Source: a virus (Duplodnaviria; Caudoviricetes). Taken from it: a stretch of 64,000 nt of DNA. Below the pieces are notes generated by a model. It was not told the origin of the DNA. It ran no database searches and saw only the letters and a program-made list of their open reading frames with translations. Shown here piece by piece: positions 742-57,324 of this stretch. Made by a program: the position numbers and the translations under genes. The first letter of the stretch is position 1; the number at the start of each line of letters is the position of its first letter. The stretch covers positions 95,800 through 159,799 of IMG/VR virus record IMGVR_UViG_3300029305_004678. One strand, 5' to 3'.

Positions 742-3700
742 TCAGCAATAGCTTGCTTGAGCAGCTCTAATAGCTTCAACCTGTTCAGGTGTATATCTAG
801 ATCTACTCAATTGAACAAGAGTATTCATATTGATAATAGTATCACGTTTGTGATTATATGAGTTATTGAACATACCATCATTCTTAGAAATATACATAGA
901 ATTTCTAGGATTGAAGACATATTCTGCAGAACGTTGAAAATCTTTATTGATGATTAGCATGATGTTTACGAATGTTCACACGGGTCGTTAATCCGTGCAG
1001 TTCTCTTATGAACTTCTACATGTTTCCATGTAGGCCAGACTATATCTACATCTTCATTTATGGAGAATAAATGAAGAGCTTCCCACTTCGAACTCACTTG
1101 AGCTCTACTCCCATTTCAGGGATAGTCGTTGAACGTTCCTCATATAGAGGCTTCGCTGCTGATTAGCATATCTATATAAAGACTTAGCCTCCCAGCAATT
1201 CAAGAAGATTTCGATATAGTGTCACCACTATATAGCCCTAATTTAATTAAGGTATCTCCATCAAAGTCTGCAGCAAGACCTTCGAGTACGGCCACAGGCA
1301 TTCCCATAGTGAATCCTACAGAAATTTCTGTACAATACATTTGAAGTATTCCACCCCATAGTGTTCACGTAGGTCGTTAATCTACGTCGTTCTCTTATGA
1401 ACTGCTATATGTTTCCACATAGATCAGACTATATCTACATCTCTATACTTGGAGAAGCATAGAGAGCTTCCCACTTCGAACTCACTTGAGTTCTACTCCC
1501 ATTTCATGGATAGTCGTTGAACCTTCCTCTTATATAAGAGGCTTGGCTGCTGATTAGCATGCTCTTTTGAGTTTAGCCTTCCAGCAATTCAAGAAGATTT
1601 CAATACAATATTACTATTGTATAGCCCAGGTTTATTTAGGGATATGGTTGGATTTCTATTAATTAAAATCGGAATACCTCTATCATAGGATTTAATAATA
1701 CCTTCGATTATATTTACAATAATCGGATTAGGTTCATGCATGGATTCATAGAGCAGTTTATATGCATCATTATATCTCATGAAGTAAGACTTCTGTAAGA
1801 TATTAATAATAGTCATCTGCAATAATCCACACAAACATGGATAACTCAGAGAAACCTCATCGATTCTCTTAGAAGGGTCTGGTGCTATAACAGAACGTGC
1901 TGTAAAGTTATCACGTGTTCACATAGGATCGCAACTCCTATGCAGTTCTCTTATGAACTTCTACATGTTTCCATGCAGGTCAGACTATATCTTAATCTCT
2001 TATAAAGAGATTTTGGCATTTCGATTTAATAGGACTTACACTGGACCTTGATGCCTAACCCCATTAGCTTGGGCTCTACGTCCTTACGGACTAGTCGTTG
2101 AACCTTTCTATTTAGATAATAGCAATCTTCAAATATAGACATCCAGTATCTTGATCGATATCTGGCTCTATATTATGGATCTTACAATTCATAATATCTT
2201 CGGGGAAGTCTTTTACATCTAGATATACCTTAGTGCAAAGCTCTTTAGCTTGTTCTAGCGTTATATCTTCAGAAGCTGTACCAAAGACATCATAAATATT
2301 AATTATTTTATATTTGTATGGATTTTGTCTAACTCCCGGATTTTGGTGCTTAGCAAAATCTGAAAGAGTCATATACAACTTACTCATACATCTATCCTCC
2401 AAATAGACTTGGCTGCTGATTAGCATTATACAAATAATTGTAATATTATTTTCTCATATAAATATATAGCTATTGACATTTCTATATAAAGACAATATAA
2501 AGATATTAATATAAGAAGTAAAATTACTATTATAAAAACATAGTTTTTCTTCATATATTAAGCCTCCCAGCAATTAACCAAAAACATACTTAAAGATTGC
2601 TCTTTAAGCAGCCATTTTTACATAGCGTCCACCAAAGAGTTGTCTTATCATTAAGACTACCATAATTTTCATTATGGATTAGACTATATCTTATCCCTCA
2701 GCTTTACCTGCTAGGGATCCTCCCACTTCGGAGTCATAACTATTTATGACTCCTACTCTACTCGGTTACTTACAAGAGTTTTTCATCTTGCTACCCTTTC
2801 GATAGTCGTTGAACGTTCTCTATTATATAGAGCTTCGCTGCTGATTAGCATGCTCTTTCGAGTTTAGCCTTCCAGCAATTCAAGAGGTTATTTTCTACGG
2901 ATTTCGCCGTAGGGATCCATAAGATAACTCTAGATCCTTTCTTGCCCGAGATAATCTTAGTAATCTCTTCATAAAGCTCCATGTACTTCATTTGGAGATC
3001 AAAAAGAAGTGTATCTTTAGGCTTTTTCTTTTTACCCATTTTTGTATTATCGTCGTTGATTTGGGCTACAAGTTTTACAATCAAATAATAGATTGCATTA
3101 GTTCCCTCATAATGAAGAACACCACCATCGAGACGATAAGGTCTTAAATGAATAGTAAAAACTGGAATAGATTGGATAAAGACTTTCTCTCTATCATTCA
3201 TGATACTCTCATAGTAATCACGTTTATTAGGCTTCTTATAGAGATAATACTCCATAATTTCATCAAATCTTTCATAGAAATCGAGCATACCGATTCCAAA
3301 GAATGGTTCATCCTTTGGCCTCTTGAAGTCAATTTCATGCCCATCCTCATCCTTCTTATTGACAGGAGTAATGATGTTTTTGAAGTCTTTCTCGCCAATA
3401 AAGAATGCAATAGACATATAAAGATTAGGATGAATAATATGATAAGGATCCTTGAGTACAGGATATCCAAACATACCGAAGTTATCACCTTTAAATGTGA
3501 CCTTAGTTCCACAAACGGGGCAAGTCTCACCCTGATTAAATCTGGCCTTAAGATGACCACAATCGCAACGATATCGATTACTACCTTCATCAATATCTTG
3601 TAGGGTGGGGCCATATTTGGTTGAGAAAATACCGTTAGGATCTTTAAGATCATACTTAATAGCTTTTGGAGAACTAATTATAAAACCATCACCTGATAGT

Positions 3701-28218: not shown

Positions 28219-28249
28219 GACAGAAAGGAATGAAAATTATGAAAAAGAC

Positions 28250-49445: not shown

Positions 49446-50213
49446 TCAGAAAGGTAATTTGTCTTCTTCAAAATGCTTAACCATAGGAAGAGTATGAATG
49501 CATTTAGAATCTGCTACCTTTTCCAATTTCTTATTTTCTTCAATTCTAGGACAAGGATTAGCAGACTGATCTTCAATATGGTTTATAATAGCATTATACA
49601 GCATATCTTCAGCTTTAGTAACAGCAGAGATATTTGCCATAGGAACTACCAGTGCCTGAGGGTGGCTTCTGGGGCCAATAACTACAGGGTTGGTTACAGG
49701 GCCGAGATCAATAATCTCATCATTACTATTCATTGCAGCATGGCGCAAACCATTATTTTCTGTAAATGTAATAACGGTATCAACAGGAAGAGTATCATCA
49801 CTACCACCAAACTCCATACCATACATAAAACGTCCAGAAGCCGGATTAGTTACTCCATAACCAAGTTTGTTATCCTTAGTACATACATAAGAATCTGGTG
49901 CACCAAAACTTCTACCCATATATCTAATTAGCCGAGTTGTATCTTCCAAATGTCCAGCCATATATTCCACATGGCTGTCGAGATTACCCCAATATTTATC
50001 AGGTATACAAATCGGCTGAGCATTAGAATGTGCACCAAAGCATTCAACACACGTTACAGGAATAGCATAGGGACGATTGGGATCATAGCCATTATTATCG
50101 CCATTAATGGCTGTAGGAATTGCAGGATGCATTTCTACAATAGTAACCTCATTTTCATGGTTATTATCGCAAGTACATCCATTAGGATTTTTGCATTTGT
50201 GATTCTTTTTCAT
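49446..50213 (-). CDS. hypothetical protein (255 aa)
   Basis: AAGGAG RBS; GTATATTATA at 50310-50319. Confidence 0.75.
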   Translation of the reverse strand: MKKNHKCKNPNGCTCDNNHENEVTIVEMHPAIPTAINGDNNGYDPNRPYAIPVTCVECFGAHSNAQPICIPDKYWGNLDSHVEYMAGHLEDTTRLIRYMGRSFGAPDSYVCTKDNKLGYGVTNPASGRFMYGMEFGGSDDTLPVDTVITFTENNGLRHAAMNSNDEIIDLGPVTNPVVIGPRSHPQALVVPMANISAVTKAEDMLYNAIINHIEDQSANPCPRIEENKKLEKVADSKCIHTLPMVKHFEEDKLPF

Positions 50214-50324
50214 GTCAATTTCTCCTTTAATATTTTTAATGAGTACACTACAAATGCTCTCATTTATTTTATTGTGGAGAATTAGATTAATTTGTAATAT
50301 ACTCGTGAATATAATATACGTCTA

Positions 50325-50422
50325 TAAAAAGATATGAGTCTAGTGCCTAAAAAGACACTAGACTCATTTTACGAAAGGAAATTTCAACCATGCCAAACCA
50401 AATATCCACCATAATTCAGCTC
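50325..50422 (-). ncRNA. candidate small RNA (~95 nt) with anti-SD/anti-start segment
   Basis: AACA-N6-TG at 50422-50433; terminator AUGAGUCUAGUG/CACUAGACUCAU plus U-tract; contains UUUGGCAUGGUUGAAAUUUCCUUUC. Confidence 0.55.
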
Positions 50423-50444
50423 AATGATATGTTAAGATGATTAA

Positions 50445-50686
50445 AACAAAAATTATTACAGATGCTGATCAGGCATCTGTAATAATCCGGATCTTGTATA
50501 AAAGATCCTTTCATCATTATACTCCATAATCATTTCGCCTCATCTCTTTATTGTGTTCTCCACGCACAATAAAGAATGAAAGAGTAATCTGAAAAATATA
50601 CAGGCTCACCACTTCCTATATATTTTAAAAAGTATATATCTCCCAAGCCCTGAATGTCTTGCTCAATATATCGTGATTACTCTCTT
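50445..50686 (-). ncRNA. candidate structured RNA (~240 nt)
   Basis: AACT-N6-TA at 50686-50697; stems AGAGUAAUC/GAUUACUCU, UCUUUAUUGUG/CACAAUAAAGA, GGAUCUU/AAGAUCC; terminator AUUAUUACAGAUGC/GCAUCUGUAAUAAU-UUUU. Confidence 0.55.
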
Positions 50687-50752
50687 ATACATAAGTTTAA
50701 TATTTTTTATTTAATAAAAAATAAAAGGCCCCTTTCAGAGCCTTTTATCATA

Positions 50753-51505
50753 TTAGTGTTTAACCATTGTGCGTTTAAAGATATTGATGCATTGTACACA
50801 AAGTTTATTTACCATATCTTCAGATATATTTAGTTCCCTTGAAATATCATATGCCGGGAGATGCTTCTTAAACCTCAAATCAAATGCTTCTACCATCTTG
50901 GTTGCATAATCAATTTTATCGGGATTATGCTTAATAATCGCATCAAGATGCTTAGTAATTATGCTATCAAATTCAGGATAGATTTTATCATATCCTTTAT
51001 GAGTTCCAAATACCAATATATAAATATTGAGAGGATAACTCATATAAGTATATTTATCTTTATTAGATGTCAATTTAGCGGTCTGAAGTTGCTTAATTCT
51101 AATTCTTATAGCACCTTCAGATCTACCAGGAAGCAATTCCATCAGTTCTTTACTAATTTCCATATTATGCTTTCTTATCTGATAATCTTCTTCCTTGGTC
51201 CATGCAGAAGGACCTTTAATCTTTAAAACTGAAGCGCGATTTTTAATAGCATACTCGCTTCTATTCGGTAGCATATCTATTACCTTAACTCCAATTTTAG
51301 GATAGTGCTTTCTAAGGATATCTTCTTCCTCATTTGTCCAATCAGAAACAGTTTTGCTGATATGAACTCCTAACTTATTTGCACGTCCCATAACAGATGC
51401 CTTGGATCTATTAGGAAATAGATCTGTGATTCTAGATCCCATAGTCTGATAGTTATCCAGGATAAGCTGATCTTCCTCTTTTGTGAAAAACTTATAGTTG
51501 CCCAT
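50753..51505 (-). CDS. Myb/SANT-repeat DNA-binding protein with C-terminal sigma4-like HTH
   Basis: Three (F/W)TxEE(D/E)xx(I/L)...PxRS repeats; YPLNIY..FG; LPAYDISRELNISEDMV. Confidence 0.75.
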   Translation of the reverse strand: MGNYKFFTKEEDQLILDNYQTMGSRITDLFPNRSKASVMGRANKLGVHISKTVSDWTNEEEDILRKHYPKIGVKVIDMLPNRSEYAIKNRASVLKIKGPSAWTKEEDYQIRKHNMEISKELMELLPGRSEGAIRIRIKQLQTAKLTSNKDKYTYMSYPLNIYILVFGTHKGYDKIYPEFDSIITKHLDAIIKHNPDKIDYATKMVEAFDLRFKKHLPAYDISRELNISEDMVNKLCVQCINIFKRTMVKH

Positions 51506-51673
51506 GATTTCATTCTCCTTGTCATTAGTAGTTGTGGTTTTTGTCTACTCATATTTATAATATATTTTCATATAAGATAAGTTTCACATTTGTATAAATA
51601 AATTCAAATAGCCTAAAGCAATCAAATTAGCCAACATATCGATAATTGAATTAAAATTCGGGAGGTTTATATT

Positions 51674-53584: not shown

Positions 53585-53937
53585 TTTCTATTCTCCTCCA
53601 ATTTGATAAGCCATCTCTCGATCTCAAATGTGTCATGATCGTGATTAGCGATTCCTCCAAACTGATTGAATTTAGATTGTGCTCTTCCAAGCATATAATC
53701 ATGGAAAGCAAAGCTACCAATAGCTTGGTAGCTTGATTTACTTTTCCATTCTCTAATAAATTCTTCTTTATCGCAAAGAAGATAAGATACTGCAGATGCA
53801 TATCTGTTATATACAGAAAATGCAACGAAGTAGACATCATTATAAGCAATGAAGTCGTTATGGCCTAAGATATCTACAACCCATCCGTGTCGTCTGAATA
53901 GATCGATATAGGTCATTGCTCCTTCTTTGATATCCAT
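53581..53937 (-). CDS. hypothetical protein (118 aa)
   Basis: Coupled ORF with RBS. Confidence 0.7.
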   Translation of the reverse strand: MDIKEGAMTYIDLFRRHGWVVDILGHNDFIAYNDVYFVAFSVYNRYASAVSYLLCDKEEFIREWKSKSSYQAIGSFAFHDYMLGRAQSKFNQFGGIANHDHDTFEIERWLIKLEENRK

Positions 53938-54584
53938 ACGTTACCCTCCTTAACATCGCAATCAAAATAAATACATTCAGGGAGGTTAAAAGTATCAGAC
54001 AGATACTTCTCTAGTTTTGCTACTGCTCCATGTAATGTATTAGATACCCCAACTACTCCGTCTCTAAAATCACTCAGAGAAATGGCATAATAAAGACCCT
54101 CGAAATAGCTTATGAAATAAGATCCTTCATTACTGATATCACAATCTACTTCACTAGCCTCATAATATTCGTATTTATCACGATCGCTGTCATCAAAAAC
54201 ATATTCCTGAAGATCTATATATGTGCTCATAAAGATCAGGATGGTATTATTATAGAATTCATCATCTTCATCTGTATACTTCTGCCAGTCATCGGAAAAA
54301 TGATATCTAATAAATCCATAAAGTCCATCATCGCTTTCATCATAAGACACCCGGCTCTTATCAAAGTTTTCGATGATAGAAATCTTAGGAGTATAATCTC
54401 CCGTTGTAATGAGACGGTATAGAACTTTAAGCATATTCTTAGATAACGTGAGAGCATATACATAGTCATCTACAATAGCATTGACAGCCATAACCACATT
54501 CCAATTAAAAATTGGGTCAGTTTTTTGGTTTAGAAATACGTGTTCTTGTATTACTACTGGCCTTAAAAAGTTTATTTTTGGCAT
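53913..54584 (-). CDS. acidic hypothetical protein (223 aa)
   Basis: First gene after ATATATTATA at 54636-54645; AAGGAGAATGAAA leader. Confidence 0.8.
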   Translation of the reverse strand: MPKINFLRPVVIQEHVFLNQKTDPIFNWNVVMAVNAIVDDYVYALTLSKNMLKVLYRLITTGDYTPKISIIENFDKSRVSYDESDDGLYGFIRYHFSDDWQKYTDEDDEFYNNTILIFMSTYIDLQEYVFDDSDRDKYEYYEASEVDCDISNEGSYFISYFEGLYYAISLSDFRDGVVGVSNTLHGAVAKLEKYLSDTFNLPECIYFDCDVKEGNVWISKKEQ

Positions 54585-54743
54585 AGTTTCATTCTCCTTT
54601 TATTTTGATACTTGAGTATCATATTATTTCATATTTATAATATATTATCATTCATTTCTCTAATTACCATTAGCTCGAATAAGGGGTATAGAAGTCAACT
54701 TATAATTAATATCTTTGCTACTCATATGAAAGGAGGAACTTCT

Positions 54744-57324
54744 ATGGCTATTATGTATGGTCAAACTCAGACCACAGTGTATTATCATATGAGTACAACC
54801 AATAAAAGTTTTCTAGAAGTACACAGATATCTTAAAGATGCTGGTATAGAAAACAATAGATTTATGCTAGTTTTATTGGATCCTGATCTAGCAAGAATAG
54901 ATCCATATGATCCTAATTTAAGTGCTATGATGAAGACTAAGGTTCTTAGAGAGTGTATCTTTAACCCTTGGTACTTCTTTAGAGAAATAGTACGAATTCC
55001 AGATTCTGGCCAAGCTACAGGTGTTAAATTTGAGCTCTCTAGAGGTAACCTTGCATTAATTTTTGCCCTAATGCTTAACTTGAATACATTCTTAGAGATG
55101 CCTCGTCAGACTGGTAAGACTATGTCTAGTCTTTGCTGGTATTTGTATCTGTTTAATTTTGGCACAGCCAATGCTGAAATGAGCTTCCTTAATAAGAAGC
55201 TTGATGACTCTAAATTAAACTTACAGCGTATTCGAGAACTTAGAGCATTATTACCTTCTTGGCTCAAGATGGATCAAGCATTTGCTCCTGATGGATCTAG
55301 AATCAAGGGTAAGAATAACGTTGAGACATTACAGCATCCTGTAAATAATAACCGTATCAGAACCGTTGCTTCTGCAAGAAATAAAGTTGCTGCAGCTAGC
55401 CTGATGCGTGGTCGTACAACTCCGATTATCTATATCGACGAGTATGGCTTTATTCAATATAACTCCATTATTTATACTAACATGGTTCCTGCATTTAATA
55501 CTGCTTCTCAGAATGCTAAGAGAAATGGTAGTCCTTATGGAATGCTGGTTACTACTACTCCTGGTATGCTTACTACAGATGAAGGCGTAGAAGCTTTCAA
55601 TATGAAGGAGAATGCTACTCCCTTCAGTGAAAGATGGTATGACCTTACCAAGGAACAGATTTATGATATCGTCAATAGTAATACCAACTCTAACTTTATT
55701 TACATTAAGTATACATACCAGCAACTCGGTAAGAGCGAACAGTGGTTTAGAGATCTCTGTATTACAATGCGTAAAGACTGGGATGCAATCCGTCGAGAAG
55801 TTTTGCTTGAATGGTCTAATTCTTCTGAGAACTCTCCTTTCAGAGCAGAAGATTTGGATACTATTAAGGGTCTACTTAAGCATCCTATCAATACAGTGCT
55901 TCTTCTCAATAAGTATGAACTCAAAATTTATGAGAAGATTAATATGAAGTATCCGCCCATTATTGGAGTTGACGTCTCTGGCGGTTATCAAAGAGACTCC
56001 TCTGCAATTACTATAATTGATTCTTTCAGCACAAGAGTAACAGCAGAGCTTAATAGTAATTTTATATCAACCCCAGAACTAGCAATGGTAATCCATGACA
56101 TTGTTTCAAAATGGATGCCTAATGCAGTAGTAAATATCGAACGAAACGGCGTAGCTTATACAGCAATCGCAGCATAAAGAGTGATCTTTATGTTTCAAGG
56201 TGTTAATTGCTATGAAGTGGGTTAAGAGCCTTACTCACCACAACGTGATCTGTAAAGATGAGCGTGATGGTTGCGAAAGCATAAAAAAGTAGTAAGGATG
56301 AATACAAGGTTAAATCCTAAATATTCACTGACAAGTCCATGTATAGCAGCGAAATATCTTATAAGAATACCACATCTTATAAGATAAACGTTCAACGATC
56401 ATCTCTTGACGAGAGAGTAGAACCGCAAGCTAATGGCGGAAGAAAAATCCCGTTCTAACGGCTGTTTAGAATGACAAATGATCTGCACAGGTTCTGTAAT
56501 GGAACTGCTTGGAATGAGCCAAGGTTATTGGAGTTGCGTCCAGTAATAAACAAATGGGTTTCGGCGCGTCAGTAATCGCGCGTCTTTTACAGACTTCTAT
56601 TAGAAAGAATCTATTCTATACTATAAAAGATAAAGTTATCGAAGAGAGAATAGTTGGTGCTGCGATACATAAACGCACTCAAAAGACTAAAGTATATGGC
56701 TCCGATTCTACAAAGGCAGAACGCGAGAACCTAATGGAAATTCTGAGAGACCGTGTTGAATATCATAAAGATAAGATTATATCTCCTACAATTTATGAAG
56801 AATTATGCGGCCTAGAGGTTAAGAAGAATGGTAAGATTGAGCATTCGAGTAATACTCACGATGACCAGGTATTCTCTTGGCTGTGGGGATTGTTCGTATA
56901 TTACAACGGTGGAGATTTGATGAACAATTGGGGTATCACAAAGAGGGTGCTCCGTACAGATGCTGATCTTGAAGAGGCTGTTGTAGATATACATGAAGAT
57001 AATGAAGAAGTTGTTACCGATCTTGATGTAAGCGATAATGAAGAAATCCAGCAAGCTGTTCAAGCAATGGAAAATGCTCCTGGTAAACTTCTTTATGAAG
57101 ATTGGATGCGTCAAGAGCAACAAAAGGACGAAGAATGCATGACAAGATTGCTATCTGATAAGGCTGTACAAAAATCTATATCTGATAGGTATAAAATGAT
57201 GATACCTCAGATGTCTTCACAAGTGCAAACTATTCCTAATGAAGTATTTGATAACTTCTATAATGATGAAGATGAACAACCATACTCTGTATTAGCCGGT
57301 AATCTTGCTCAATTCATAAAATAA
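54744..57324 (+). CDS. terL: terminase large subunit, spliced from 54744-56150 and 56557-57324 (~724 aa)
   Basis: Walker A MPRQTGKT, Walker B IYIDE, TTTPG, nuclease IGVDVSGG..DSS, NIERNG|GFG, HDDQV; late promoter 54697-54708. Confidence 0.92.
56151..56556 (+). ncRNA. group I intron in terL (~406 nt, no ORF)
   Basis: P4 UUGCUAU/AUAGCAG; GUUCAACGAUCAU and AUGAUCUG (P7); terminal G; exact junction may shift by 1-2 nt. Confidence 0.85.

What the first reader, a model, noticed from the sequence alone, without database searches (positions are those of the whole stretch)
50325..50433. Standalone late small RNA with an anti-RBS/anti-AUG seed: candidate phage sRNA shut-off system
A late promoter (AACATATCATTG) and a strong terminator bound a ~95-nt unit with no convincing ORF. 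Its middle, UUUGGCAUGGUU-GAAA-UUUCCUUU, can form 12 bp (one G.U) over AACUAUGCCAAA and 8 bp over AAAGGAGA in the start region of the early gene at 54584. Together with the UTR elements at 28223, 42868 and 44204, this suggests a set of late-expressed antisense RNAs aimed at translation starts of early phage or host genes. I do not know of such a system described for this phage group.
Basis: partly seen in the sequence, partly recalled or inferred. Interest (0 to 1): 0.8.

Follow-up and report, generated by a model that had tools for sequence, protein, structure and literature searches.

The report
Conserved late small RNA, jumbo phage
An uncultured AR9-like giant phage and its relatives keep a gene for a roughly 97-base non-coding RNA whose open middle mirrors ribosome-binding sites, so it is probably a translation regulator, but the specific target first proposed is not conserved.

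Summary
Window 50326-50422 (minus strand) is a discrete unit. It has an AR9-type late promoter (AACA-N6-TG), a 5' hairpin, a ~27-nt open stretch (GGCAUGGUUGA plus a CU-rich tract) and a strong terminator.

Ten distinct variants occur in syntenic contigs. There the unit is 87-98% identical, while the flanking genes are 50-75% identical. Both helices keep pairing through compensatory changes. Abundant G.U pairs place the RNA on the minus strand. No ORF is conserved on either strand; the plus-strand MPNQ... frame shifts and shrinks to 7 codons.

It is the 3' member of a tandem pair. Upstream lies a ~242-nt highly structured RNA (50445-50686). A covariance model of that RNA finds it next to the prohead protease gene in more distant phages. 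Each of these is followed by a late-promoter RNA with the same layout and a CCUUUC tract. A third lineage has only the second RNA.

The proposed pairing with the 54584 start region is real (about -25 kcal/mol, best of 123 start regions). However, that gene is replaced by an unrelated one in two relatives, a non-start site scores better, and a four-genome ortholog test finds no conserved target.

Best reading: a new phage sRNA family with generic anti-ribosome-site character; mechanism unproven. This scan has noted similar late anti-SD RNAs in other AR9-like phages.

The parts
50326..50422 (-). sRNA B, the finding: predicted ~97-nt late non-coding RNA
   Evidence: Runs from the promoter-defined start G50422 to the U-run after the terminator. 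It is 87-98% identical in relatives whose flanks are 50-75% identical. Structure: 97.5% of cells paired, 9 pairs changed on both sides, 0 of 500 shuffles as high. No Rfam match.
50422..50433 (-). AR9-type late promoter AACA-N6-TG; predicted start at G50422
   Evidence: Matches the consensus in PMC5312081. The motif class is enriched upstream of late genes here. AACAT and AATA(G/A) are conserved in relatives.
50395..50422 (-). 5' hairpin B1: 9-bp stem starting at +1, with an invariant UGGUGGA in the loop
   Evidence: One compensatory pair and six pairs that vary through G.U/A-U/G-C exchanges. Many G.U pairs make the helix specific to the minus strand. It is the minimum-free-energy fold in relatives.
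50368..50394 (-). Unpaired seed region: invariant GGCAUGGUUGA, then a CU-rich tract (UUUCCUUUC)
   Evidence: Invariant block in 10 variants. All tract changes are C/U or A/G transitions. Predicted single-stranded. Pairs with start regions better than shuffles do.
50334..50367 (-). Intrinsic terminator of sRNA B
   Evidence: Eight of 11 stem pairs show compensatory changes and 100% of cells are paired.
50445..50686 (-). RNA A: upstream ~242-nt structured non-coding RNA of the same tandem module
   Evidence: Fold z-score -7.1 for the folded stretch 50325-50700, which spans both RNA A and sRNA B. 99.7% paired with 9 compensated pairs in the close clade. With distant homologues, 33 compensated pairs against 8.6 in shuffles (the alignment was fitted to the model). 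Model R2 finds it beside the protease gene in L148/L149/L005 (57 bits) and L007-L009 (38.8 bits).
50686..50697 (-). Weak late-promoter-like site AACT-N6-TA for RNA A; start A50686 is inferred
   Evidence: One base off the consensus; 4.7 bits. Conserved in all 9 full-length relatives. Helix P1 begins at +3.
50450..50488 (-). Terminator of RNA A
   Evidence: Compensatory changes at 3 stem pairs in the close clade and at 8 of 16 once distant homologues are added.
50720..50749 (-). Terminator of the upstream early Myb-like gene (50753-51505)
   Evidence: An early promoter motif gives a predicted start at 51550.
50304..50319 (-). Early-promoter-like site GTATATTAT-N6-G for the downstream gene 49446-50213 (inferred)
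   Evidence: One mismatch to the AR9-type early motif. Conserved in relatives.
54577..54607 (-).
   Evidence: Pairing confirmed. The gene is absent from this position in L132 and L133.

Best explanation
Window 50326-50422 (minus strand) is a gene for a ~97-nt non-coding RNA, sRNA B. The phage's own late (non-virion) RNA polymerase transcribes it from an AR9-type promoter, and an intrinsic terminator ends it. It is the second RNA of a conserved two-RNA late module; RNA A is the first. The module lies beside the prohead protease gene in a clade of uncultured AR9-like jumbo phages.

The RNA has a 5' hairpin, an unpaired stretch carrying CAU plus a CU-rich tract that resembles the ribosome's anti-Shine-Dalgarno tail, and a terminator hairpin.

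Most likely mechanism (inferred, not shown): late in infection the open stretch base-pairs with the Shine-Dalgarno/start-codon region of one or more phage or host mRNAs and blocks ribosome loading.

My odds: a real late non-coding RNA gene, about 0.85. Acts by pairing with translation start regions, about 0.4. The 54584 mRNA is its selected target, about 0.1.
For: - Conservation peak: 87-98% identity over 50680-50381, against 50-75% in the flanking genes.
- Ten distinct variants with an invariant GGUUUGGCAUGGUU.
- Both helices are supported by compensatory changes; 0 of 500 shuffles match and slid controls collapse to 27-44% paired.
- G.U-rich stems fit only the minus strand.
- The promoter fits the AR9 late consensus, and that motif is enriched before late genes in this genome.
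- No ORF is conserved on either strand.
- The seed pairs with start regions much better than shuffles do.
- Diverged lineages (L004, L006 and L007 types) have, at the same place, a late-promoter RNA with the same layout: 5' hairpin, unpaired pyrimidine-rich stretch with UUCCUUUCA, CACCUUUCUU, ACCUCC or CAUGAUUUCUCCUUUU, then a terminator.
- Preference for start regions over internal mRNA windows is strong in two of four genomes (p=1e-14 and 2e-21) and weak in this one (p=0.037).
Against:
- No conserved target. The 54584 gene is replaced in relatives.
- No orthologous top hit across WIN, L132 and L133.
- The four-genome ortholog test is null (p=0.26).
- No extended complement exists elsewhere in the 160 kb held.
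- Preference for start regions is absent in the L007-type genome (p=0.58) and, against shuffles, weak in the L004 type.
- Any CU-rich RNA will pair with purine-rich start regions.
- The window's own promoter copy is a weak match.
- Only 65% of this genome and about 15 kb of the close relatives are available.
Confidence: 0.5

Rival explanations
1. Protein- or ribosome-binding decoy. The unpaired pyrimidine-rich stretch and the conserved hairpin loops bind and titrate a protein that recognises pyrimidine-rich or structured RNA. This could be a host factor or a phage protein; candidates such as Hfq or ribosomal protein S1 are named from memory only. mRNA pairing would not be involved. RNA A may act as a partner scaffold.
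For: Loops of RNA A (AAGUGGUGAG, CGUGGAGAA) and of B1 (GUGGUGGAU) share GUGGWG. The B analogues are long U/C-rich unstructured RNAs, especially the L006 type. No conserved mRNA target was found. The invariance of GGCAUGGUUGA has no identified RNA partner.
Against: The GUGGWG loop motif is not kept in distant homologues. GGA and SD-like motif counts in RNA A are unremarkable, in the top 8-10% of genome windows. No candidate protein was identified.
Confidence: 0.2
2. One reading: sRNA B is a late antisense shut-off RNA aimed at the early gene at 54584, and at other early AAGGAGAAUGAAA leaders.
For: The 8 + 12 bp pairing is real and is the best of 123 start regions. Early genes share an AAGGAGAAUGAAA leader. 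The 2-nt longer spacer unique to the window's copy fits this leader's spacing (inference).
Against: The target gene is absent from the syntenic position in relatives that keep the seed. A better-scoring non-start site exists, at -30.0. Early-type leaders score only marginally better than the rest (p=0.052). The ortholog test is null.
Confidence: 0.1
3. A DNA-level or purely transcriptional element: tandem terminators and promoters that insulate two early genes, or an origin or packaging signal, with no functional RNA product.
For: Three terminators in 540 bp lie between two early genes.
Against: The most conserved parts are loops and unpaired stretches, not the terminator stems, which vary with compensation. 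G.U pairs imply RNA-level selection on one strand. The predicted starts coincide with the first base of helices.
Confidence: 0.05
4. A plus-strand micro-ORF (MPNQISTIIQLNDMLR) with its own ribosome-binding site is the real feature. Alternatively, the locus is a type I toxin-antitoxin pair.
For: The plus strand reads as a good SD-spacer-ATG. L006 and L007 types also have short plus-strand ORFs behind SD-like sequences (read).
Against: The frame shifts among close relatives and stops after 7 codons in L035. The L004 type has no start codon at that place. The peptides are unrelated between lineages and have no membrane-spanning stretch. No plus-strand promoter motif was seen. G.U pairs would become C.A mismatches on the plus strand.
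Confidence: 0.03

Closest known systems
Trans-acting base-pairing sRNAs of low-GC Gram-positive bacteria with C/U-rich seeds that cover Shine-Dalgarno sequences (RsaE/RoxS, S. aureus RNAIII); named from my own knowledge
   Same: Small size; a stem-loop, open seed and intrinsic terminator layout; a pyrimidine-rich unpaired seed complementary to purine-rich ribosome-binding sites.
   Different: Phage-encoded and read from a phage-polymerase late promoter. No sequence or Rfam relation. The seed is UUCCUUUC plus CAU, not UCCC. No validated or conserved target.
c4 antisense RNA of phages P1 and P7 (Citron and Schuster 1990, as reviewed in PMC12197685)
   Same: A phage-encoded small RNA that pairs around a ribosome-binding site of a phage mRNA and blocks translation.
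   Different: c4 is processed from the transcript it regulates, belongs to temperate phages and serves immunity. Here the RNA has its own promoter and terminator in a virulent-type jumbo phage, and its target is unknown. No Rfam hit.
Late non-coding RNAs of virulent phages: PAK_P3 ncRNA1 and ncRNA2, and phiKZ ncRNA candidates (PMC10914365); late-promoter antisense transcripts of AR9 (PMC5312081)
   Same: Abundant or promoter-defined late RNAs without ORFs in lytic and jumbo phages; function unknown.
   Different: The PAK_P3 RNAs lack their own start sites and arise by 3' UTR processing. The AR9 cases are antisense to genes. This RNA is a stand-alone intergenic gene with comparative support but no expression data.

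Membership tests
AR9-type late transcription unit | Promoter AACA-(6N)-TA/G, with the last base as the start | tested here: met
   AACATATCATTG at 50433-50422. Consensus from PMC5312081. The motif is enriched before late genes in this genome.
AR9-type late transcription unit | Transcript observed late in infection with a 5' end at the predicted base | not testable with these tools
No isolate exists.
Trans-acting anti-SD base-pairing sRNA | Conserved unpaired seed flanked by a stem-loop and an intrinsic terminator | tested here: met
   The same layout appears in three diverged lineages.
Trans-acting anti-SD base-pairing sRNA | Complementarity to a target start region that is conserved or covaries across relatives | tested here: not met
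   The 54584 gene is replaced in relatives. There is no shared top hit. The ortholog test gives p=0.26. Coverage of the close relatives is only about 15 kb.
Trans-acting anti-SD base-pairing sRNA | General bias of the seed toward translation start regions | tested here: inconclusive
   Strong against shuffles for the window's seed. Across four genomes it is strong in two, weak in one and absent in one.
Any Rfam family (including C4, RsaE, 6S, CsrB/RsmZ, tmRNA) | Covariance-model match at or near the gathering score | tested here: not met
   Searches return only noise. ARAGORN finds nothing.
CsrB/RsmZ-type CsrA sponge (considered for the A+B module) | Many GGA motifs displayed in loops, well above background | tested here: inconclusive
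   RNA A has 6 GGA against 3.0 +/- 1.9 in genome windows, which puts it in the top 10%. Several sit in loops, but the loops are not kept in distant homologues.
Type I toxin-antitoxin or small protein gene | A conserved small ORF on the opposite (or same) strand | tested here: not met
   (frameshifts; 7 codons in L035). (no ATG in the L004 type). The MIMEYNDER ORF of RNA A is lost in the L007 type.

The most novel reading that the evidence does not exclude
AR9-like jumbo phages of gut and rumen Bacillota carry a conserved two-RNA late module beside the head protease gene. Its second RNA imitates the ribosome's anti-Shine-Dalgarno tail plus the initiator anticodon. It acts as a global RNA-level switch that withdraws early-type leaders (AAGGAGAAUGAAA) from translation once the late polymerase is active. 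This would be a temporal class switch made of RNA rather than protein.
Probability: 0.15. Interest if true: 0.8.

Novelty: new member of a known kind. Interest (0 to 1): 0.5.

Why it matters
Post-transcriptional control in jumbo phages is almost unexplored, and AR9-like phages run their own transcription machinery. A stand-alone small RNA gene read from a late promoter, kept under stronger constraint than its neighbouring protein genes and paired with a second, larger structured RNA, gives two uncatalogued RNA families with clear comparative support.

It also gives a concrete hypothesis: RNA-mediated masking of ribosome-binding sites late in infection. If true, it would add an RNA layer to the early-to-late switch of a phage group so far explained only by two RNA polymerases. 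If the RNA is instead a protein decoy, it points to an unknown host or phage RNA-binding target.

Tried and rejected
- blastn of the 2.2-kb region against GenBank phages: no match.
- Single-protein locus searches with the two flanking genes in IMG/VR: nothing.
- A 15-mer scan of IMG/VR: 78 hits, all chance; nhmmer found the element in none.
- Two-block patterns for RNA A in IMG/VR and JGI metagenomes: 0 hits.
- Two-block pattern for sRNA B: 6 metagenome hits and 1 genome hit, all chance by model R1; 0 viral hits.
- Model R1 in the phage's own genome: the second hit is the 3' end of an ORF plus its terminator, not a paralogue. R1 did not find the diverged B analogues; they were found by synteny.
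- AATCATCNWAAC as a shared promoter box: not enriched.
- Exact AACATATCATTG as a repeated motif: not enriched as a 12-mer; only the degenerate AR9 motif is.
- A-B intermolecular pairing: no better than shuffles (p=0.2-0.7).
- Terminase leader as a conserved target: 12-14 bp in some genomes but only about 7 bp in the L133 type, and not significant in the ortholog test.
- The perfect 16-nt anti-leader box of the L006 type: no matching start region in that genome.

Full report
**Setting.** The window is the last 64 kb of a 159.8-kb IMG/VR viral record judged 65% complete. Its major head protein is about 22% identical to those of Bacillus phages AR9 and PBS1 and of Listeria, Staphylococcus and Yersinia jumbo phages. 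It encodes a T4-type prohead protease, a large terminase subunit, a chaperonin and ThyX, and it carries group I introns.

The finding lies in a 539-nt gap (50214-50752) between two minus-strand genes. These are a Myb-like regulator (50753-51505) and an unknown 255-aa protein (49446-50213). The gap holds three minus-strand terminator-like hairpins, against 1.5 expected in the whole 3-kb scan.

**Observation.**
- AACATATCATTG (50433-50422, minus) matches the AR9 late promoter consensus AACA-(6N)-TA/G, whose last base is the start site (PMC5312081).
- The degenerate motif is real in this phage. 54 of 214 occurrences fall in the 11% of the genome that is intergenic (p=8e-9), typically 30-60 nt before structural genes such as the protease. 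The phage's own extended consensus is AACATnnnAATAA.
- The window's copy is a weak match (6.4 bits). The relatives' copies are better.
- The AR9-type early motif ATATATTAT-N6-G occurs at 21 places. These include sites before the Myb-like gene and before the gene at 54584.
- The claimed 12-bp and 8-bp pairings to the 54584 start region exist.

**Conservation.** Homologues of the 255-aa neighbour (55-67% identical) led to syntenic contigs from Logan, ENA and JGI assemblies.
- In a 5.8-kb multiple alignment, identity to the window is 50-75% in the flanking genes and 77-92% in the protease gene.
- It is 87-98% across 50680-50381, the highest in the neighbourhood.
- The conserved DNA splits into two units, each ending in a hairpin plus U-run.

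**sRNA B (the finding).** With the start placed by the promoter rule, the RNA begins at G50422 (A in most relatives), and a 9-bp hairpin starts at +1.
- On ten distinct sequences, 97.5% of cells pair in the two helices.
- Nine pairs show changes on both sides, against 2.4 in shuffles (0 of 500 reach it).
- Sliding the partners drops pairing to 27-44%.
- The terminator stem is compensated at 8 of 11 positions.
- The 5' hairpin varies mostly through G.U/A-U/G-C exchanges and is rich in G.U. That fits only a minus-strand RNA.
- Between the helices lies an unpaired stretch with invariant GGCAUGGUUGA and a CU-rich tract. All changes in that tract are transitions.

No ORF survives comparison.
- The plus-strand MPNQISTIIQLNDMLR frame is shifted by an indel in all relatives.
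- It ends after 7 codons in L035.
- Minus-strand ORFs are likewise inconsistent.

Rfam and ARAGORN find nothing.

**RNA A and the wider family.** Upstream, 50445-50686 folds into a multi-helix RNA.
- The fold z-score is -7.1 for 50325-50700, which spans both RNAs.
- 99.7% of cells are paired, with 9 compensated pairs.
- A covariance model of it (R2) finds significant homologues directly beside the protease gene in IMG/VR relatives that share 75-79% protease identity: 57 bits in L148/L149/L005 and 38.8 bits in L007-L009.
- With these included, 33 of 76 pairs carry compensatory changes, against 8.6 in shuffles. The alignment is fitted to the model, so this leans toward the structure.
- The short MIMEYNDER ORF in RNA A is not kept in the L007 type, so RNA A is non-coding too.

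Immediately downstream of RNA A in the L004 and L007 types there is again an AACA-N6-T[AG] promoter. In L006, where RNA A was not detected, the same promoter sits at the same place. In all three it is followed by an RNA with a 5' hairpin at +1, an unpaired pyrimidine-rich stretch and a strong terminator.
- These analogues have diverged beyond the reach of model R1.
- All keep a CCUUUC-type tract: UUCCUUUCA, CACCUUUCUU plus ACCUCC, or UUUUCCUUUCAU plus CAUGAUUUCUCCUUUU.
- Three of the four lineages keep an upstream CAU.
- More distant phages (50% protease identity or less) lack the module.

**Targets.**
- The window's seed pairs with 123 SD-bearing start regions much better than shuffled seeds do. 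The mean is -13.7 against -9.6 +/- 0.8. Fourteen regions score -18 kcal/mol or lower, against 0.9 expected.
- The 54584 leader is the best of them (-24.4), but it is closely followed by four others.
- A genome-wide scan gives a better site inside a coding region (-30.0).
- In L132 and L133 the syntenic early gene is an unrelated protein with a different leader, although the seed is unchanged.
- No orthologous site recurs among the top hits of WIN, L132 and L133.
- I fetched three complete relatives, called genes, paired orthologues by reciprocal best hits and scored each genome's own B RNA against its own start regions. The best ortholog group has mean z -1.46, no better than permuted orthology (-1.31 +/- 0.25, p=0.26).
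- Bias toward start regions over internal mRNA windows is strong in two genomes, weak here and absent in one.
- Pairing between A and B is at shuffle level.

**Reading.** The RNA gene is well supported. The generic anti-ribosome-site character is supported in part. The specific target is not supported. I rate a real late ncRNA gene at about 0.85, action by pairing with translation start regions at about 0.4, and the 54584 mRNA as the selected target at about 0.1. A protein or ribosome decoy is the main rival.

Notes from this scan report similar late-promoter anti-SD RNAs in at least eight other AR9-like or jumbo phage genomes. I treat these as leads, not as evidence.

**Limits.** There are no expression data. 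Only 65% of this genome and about 15 kb of each close relative are held. Gene calls and start sites in my scripts are crude. Duplex energies ignore intramolecular structure.

Noticed in passing
window 50445-50686 (-): A ~242-nt highly structured late RNA (RNA A) lies directly upstream of the finding. It has strong covariation and homologues beside the protease gene in diverged phages, no Rfam match and no conserved ORF.
   Followed up: yes
window 1016-1259, 1405-1647, 2660-2941 (-): Three group I introns score well above the Rfam gathering score (85-96 bits) within 2 kb.
   Followed up: no
window 5902, 12312, 15997, 16710, 42301, 51505, 54584 (gene starts): Several of these genes lie behind the AR9-type early promoter motif (marked E) and share a near-identical leader, AAGGAGAAUGAAA-N2-3-AUG. 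Genes 12312 and 15997 have the leader but no detected early motif. Genes behind late promoters mostly use AAGGAGG. So there are two classes of ribosome-binding context.
   Followed up: partly
window 53913-54584 versus L132:2642-3418 and L133:2954-3736: The early gene next to the terminase gene is replaced by an unrelated 258-260-aa gene in close relatives. The early promoter upstream (GATAATATATTATAAATATG) is kept, which suggests a swappable early-gene cassette.
   Followed up: partly
window 54700-54750 (+); L132 and L133 equivalents: The terminase leader GCTACTCATATGAAAGGAGGAACTTCTATGGCT is nearly invariant in three genomes. That is unusually conserved for a 5' UTR.
   Followed up: partly
L006:5551-5728 (-): The B analogue of this lineage is 178 nt and has two anti-start boxes. 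One is a perfect 16-nt complement of an idealised leader, AAAAGGAGAAAUCAUG, yet no such start region exists in that 221-kb genome.
   Followed up: partly
A CCUCUUUCU-like tract is partly kept.
   Followed up: partly
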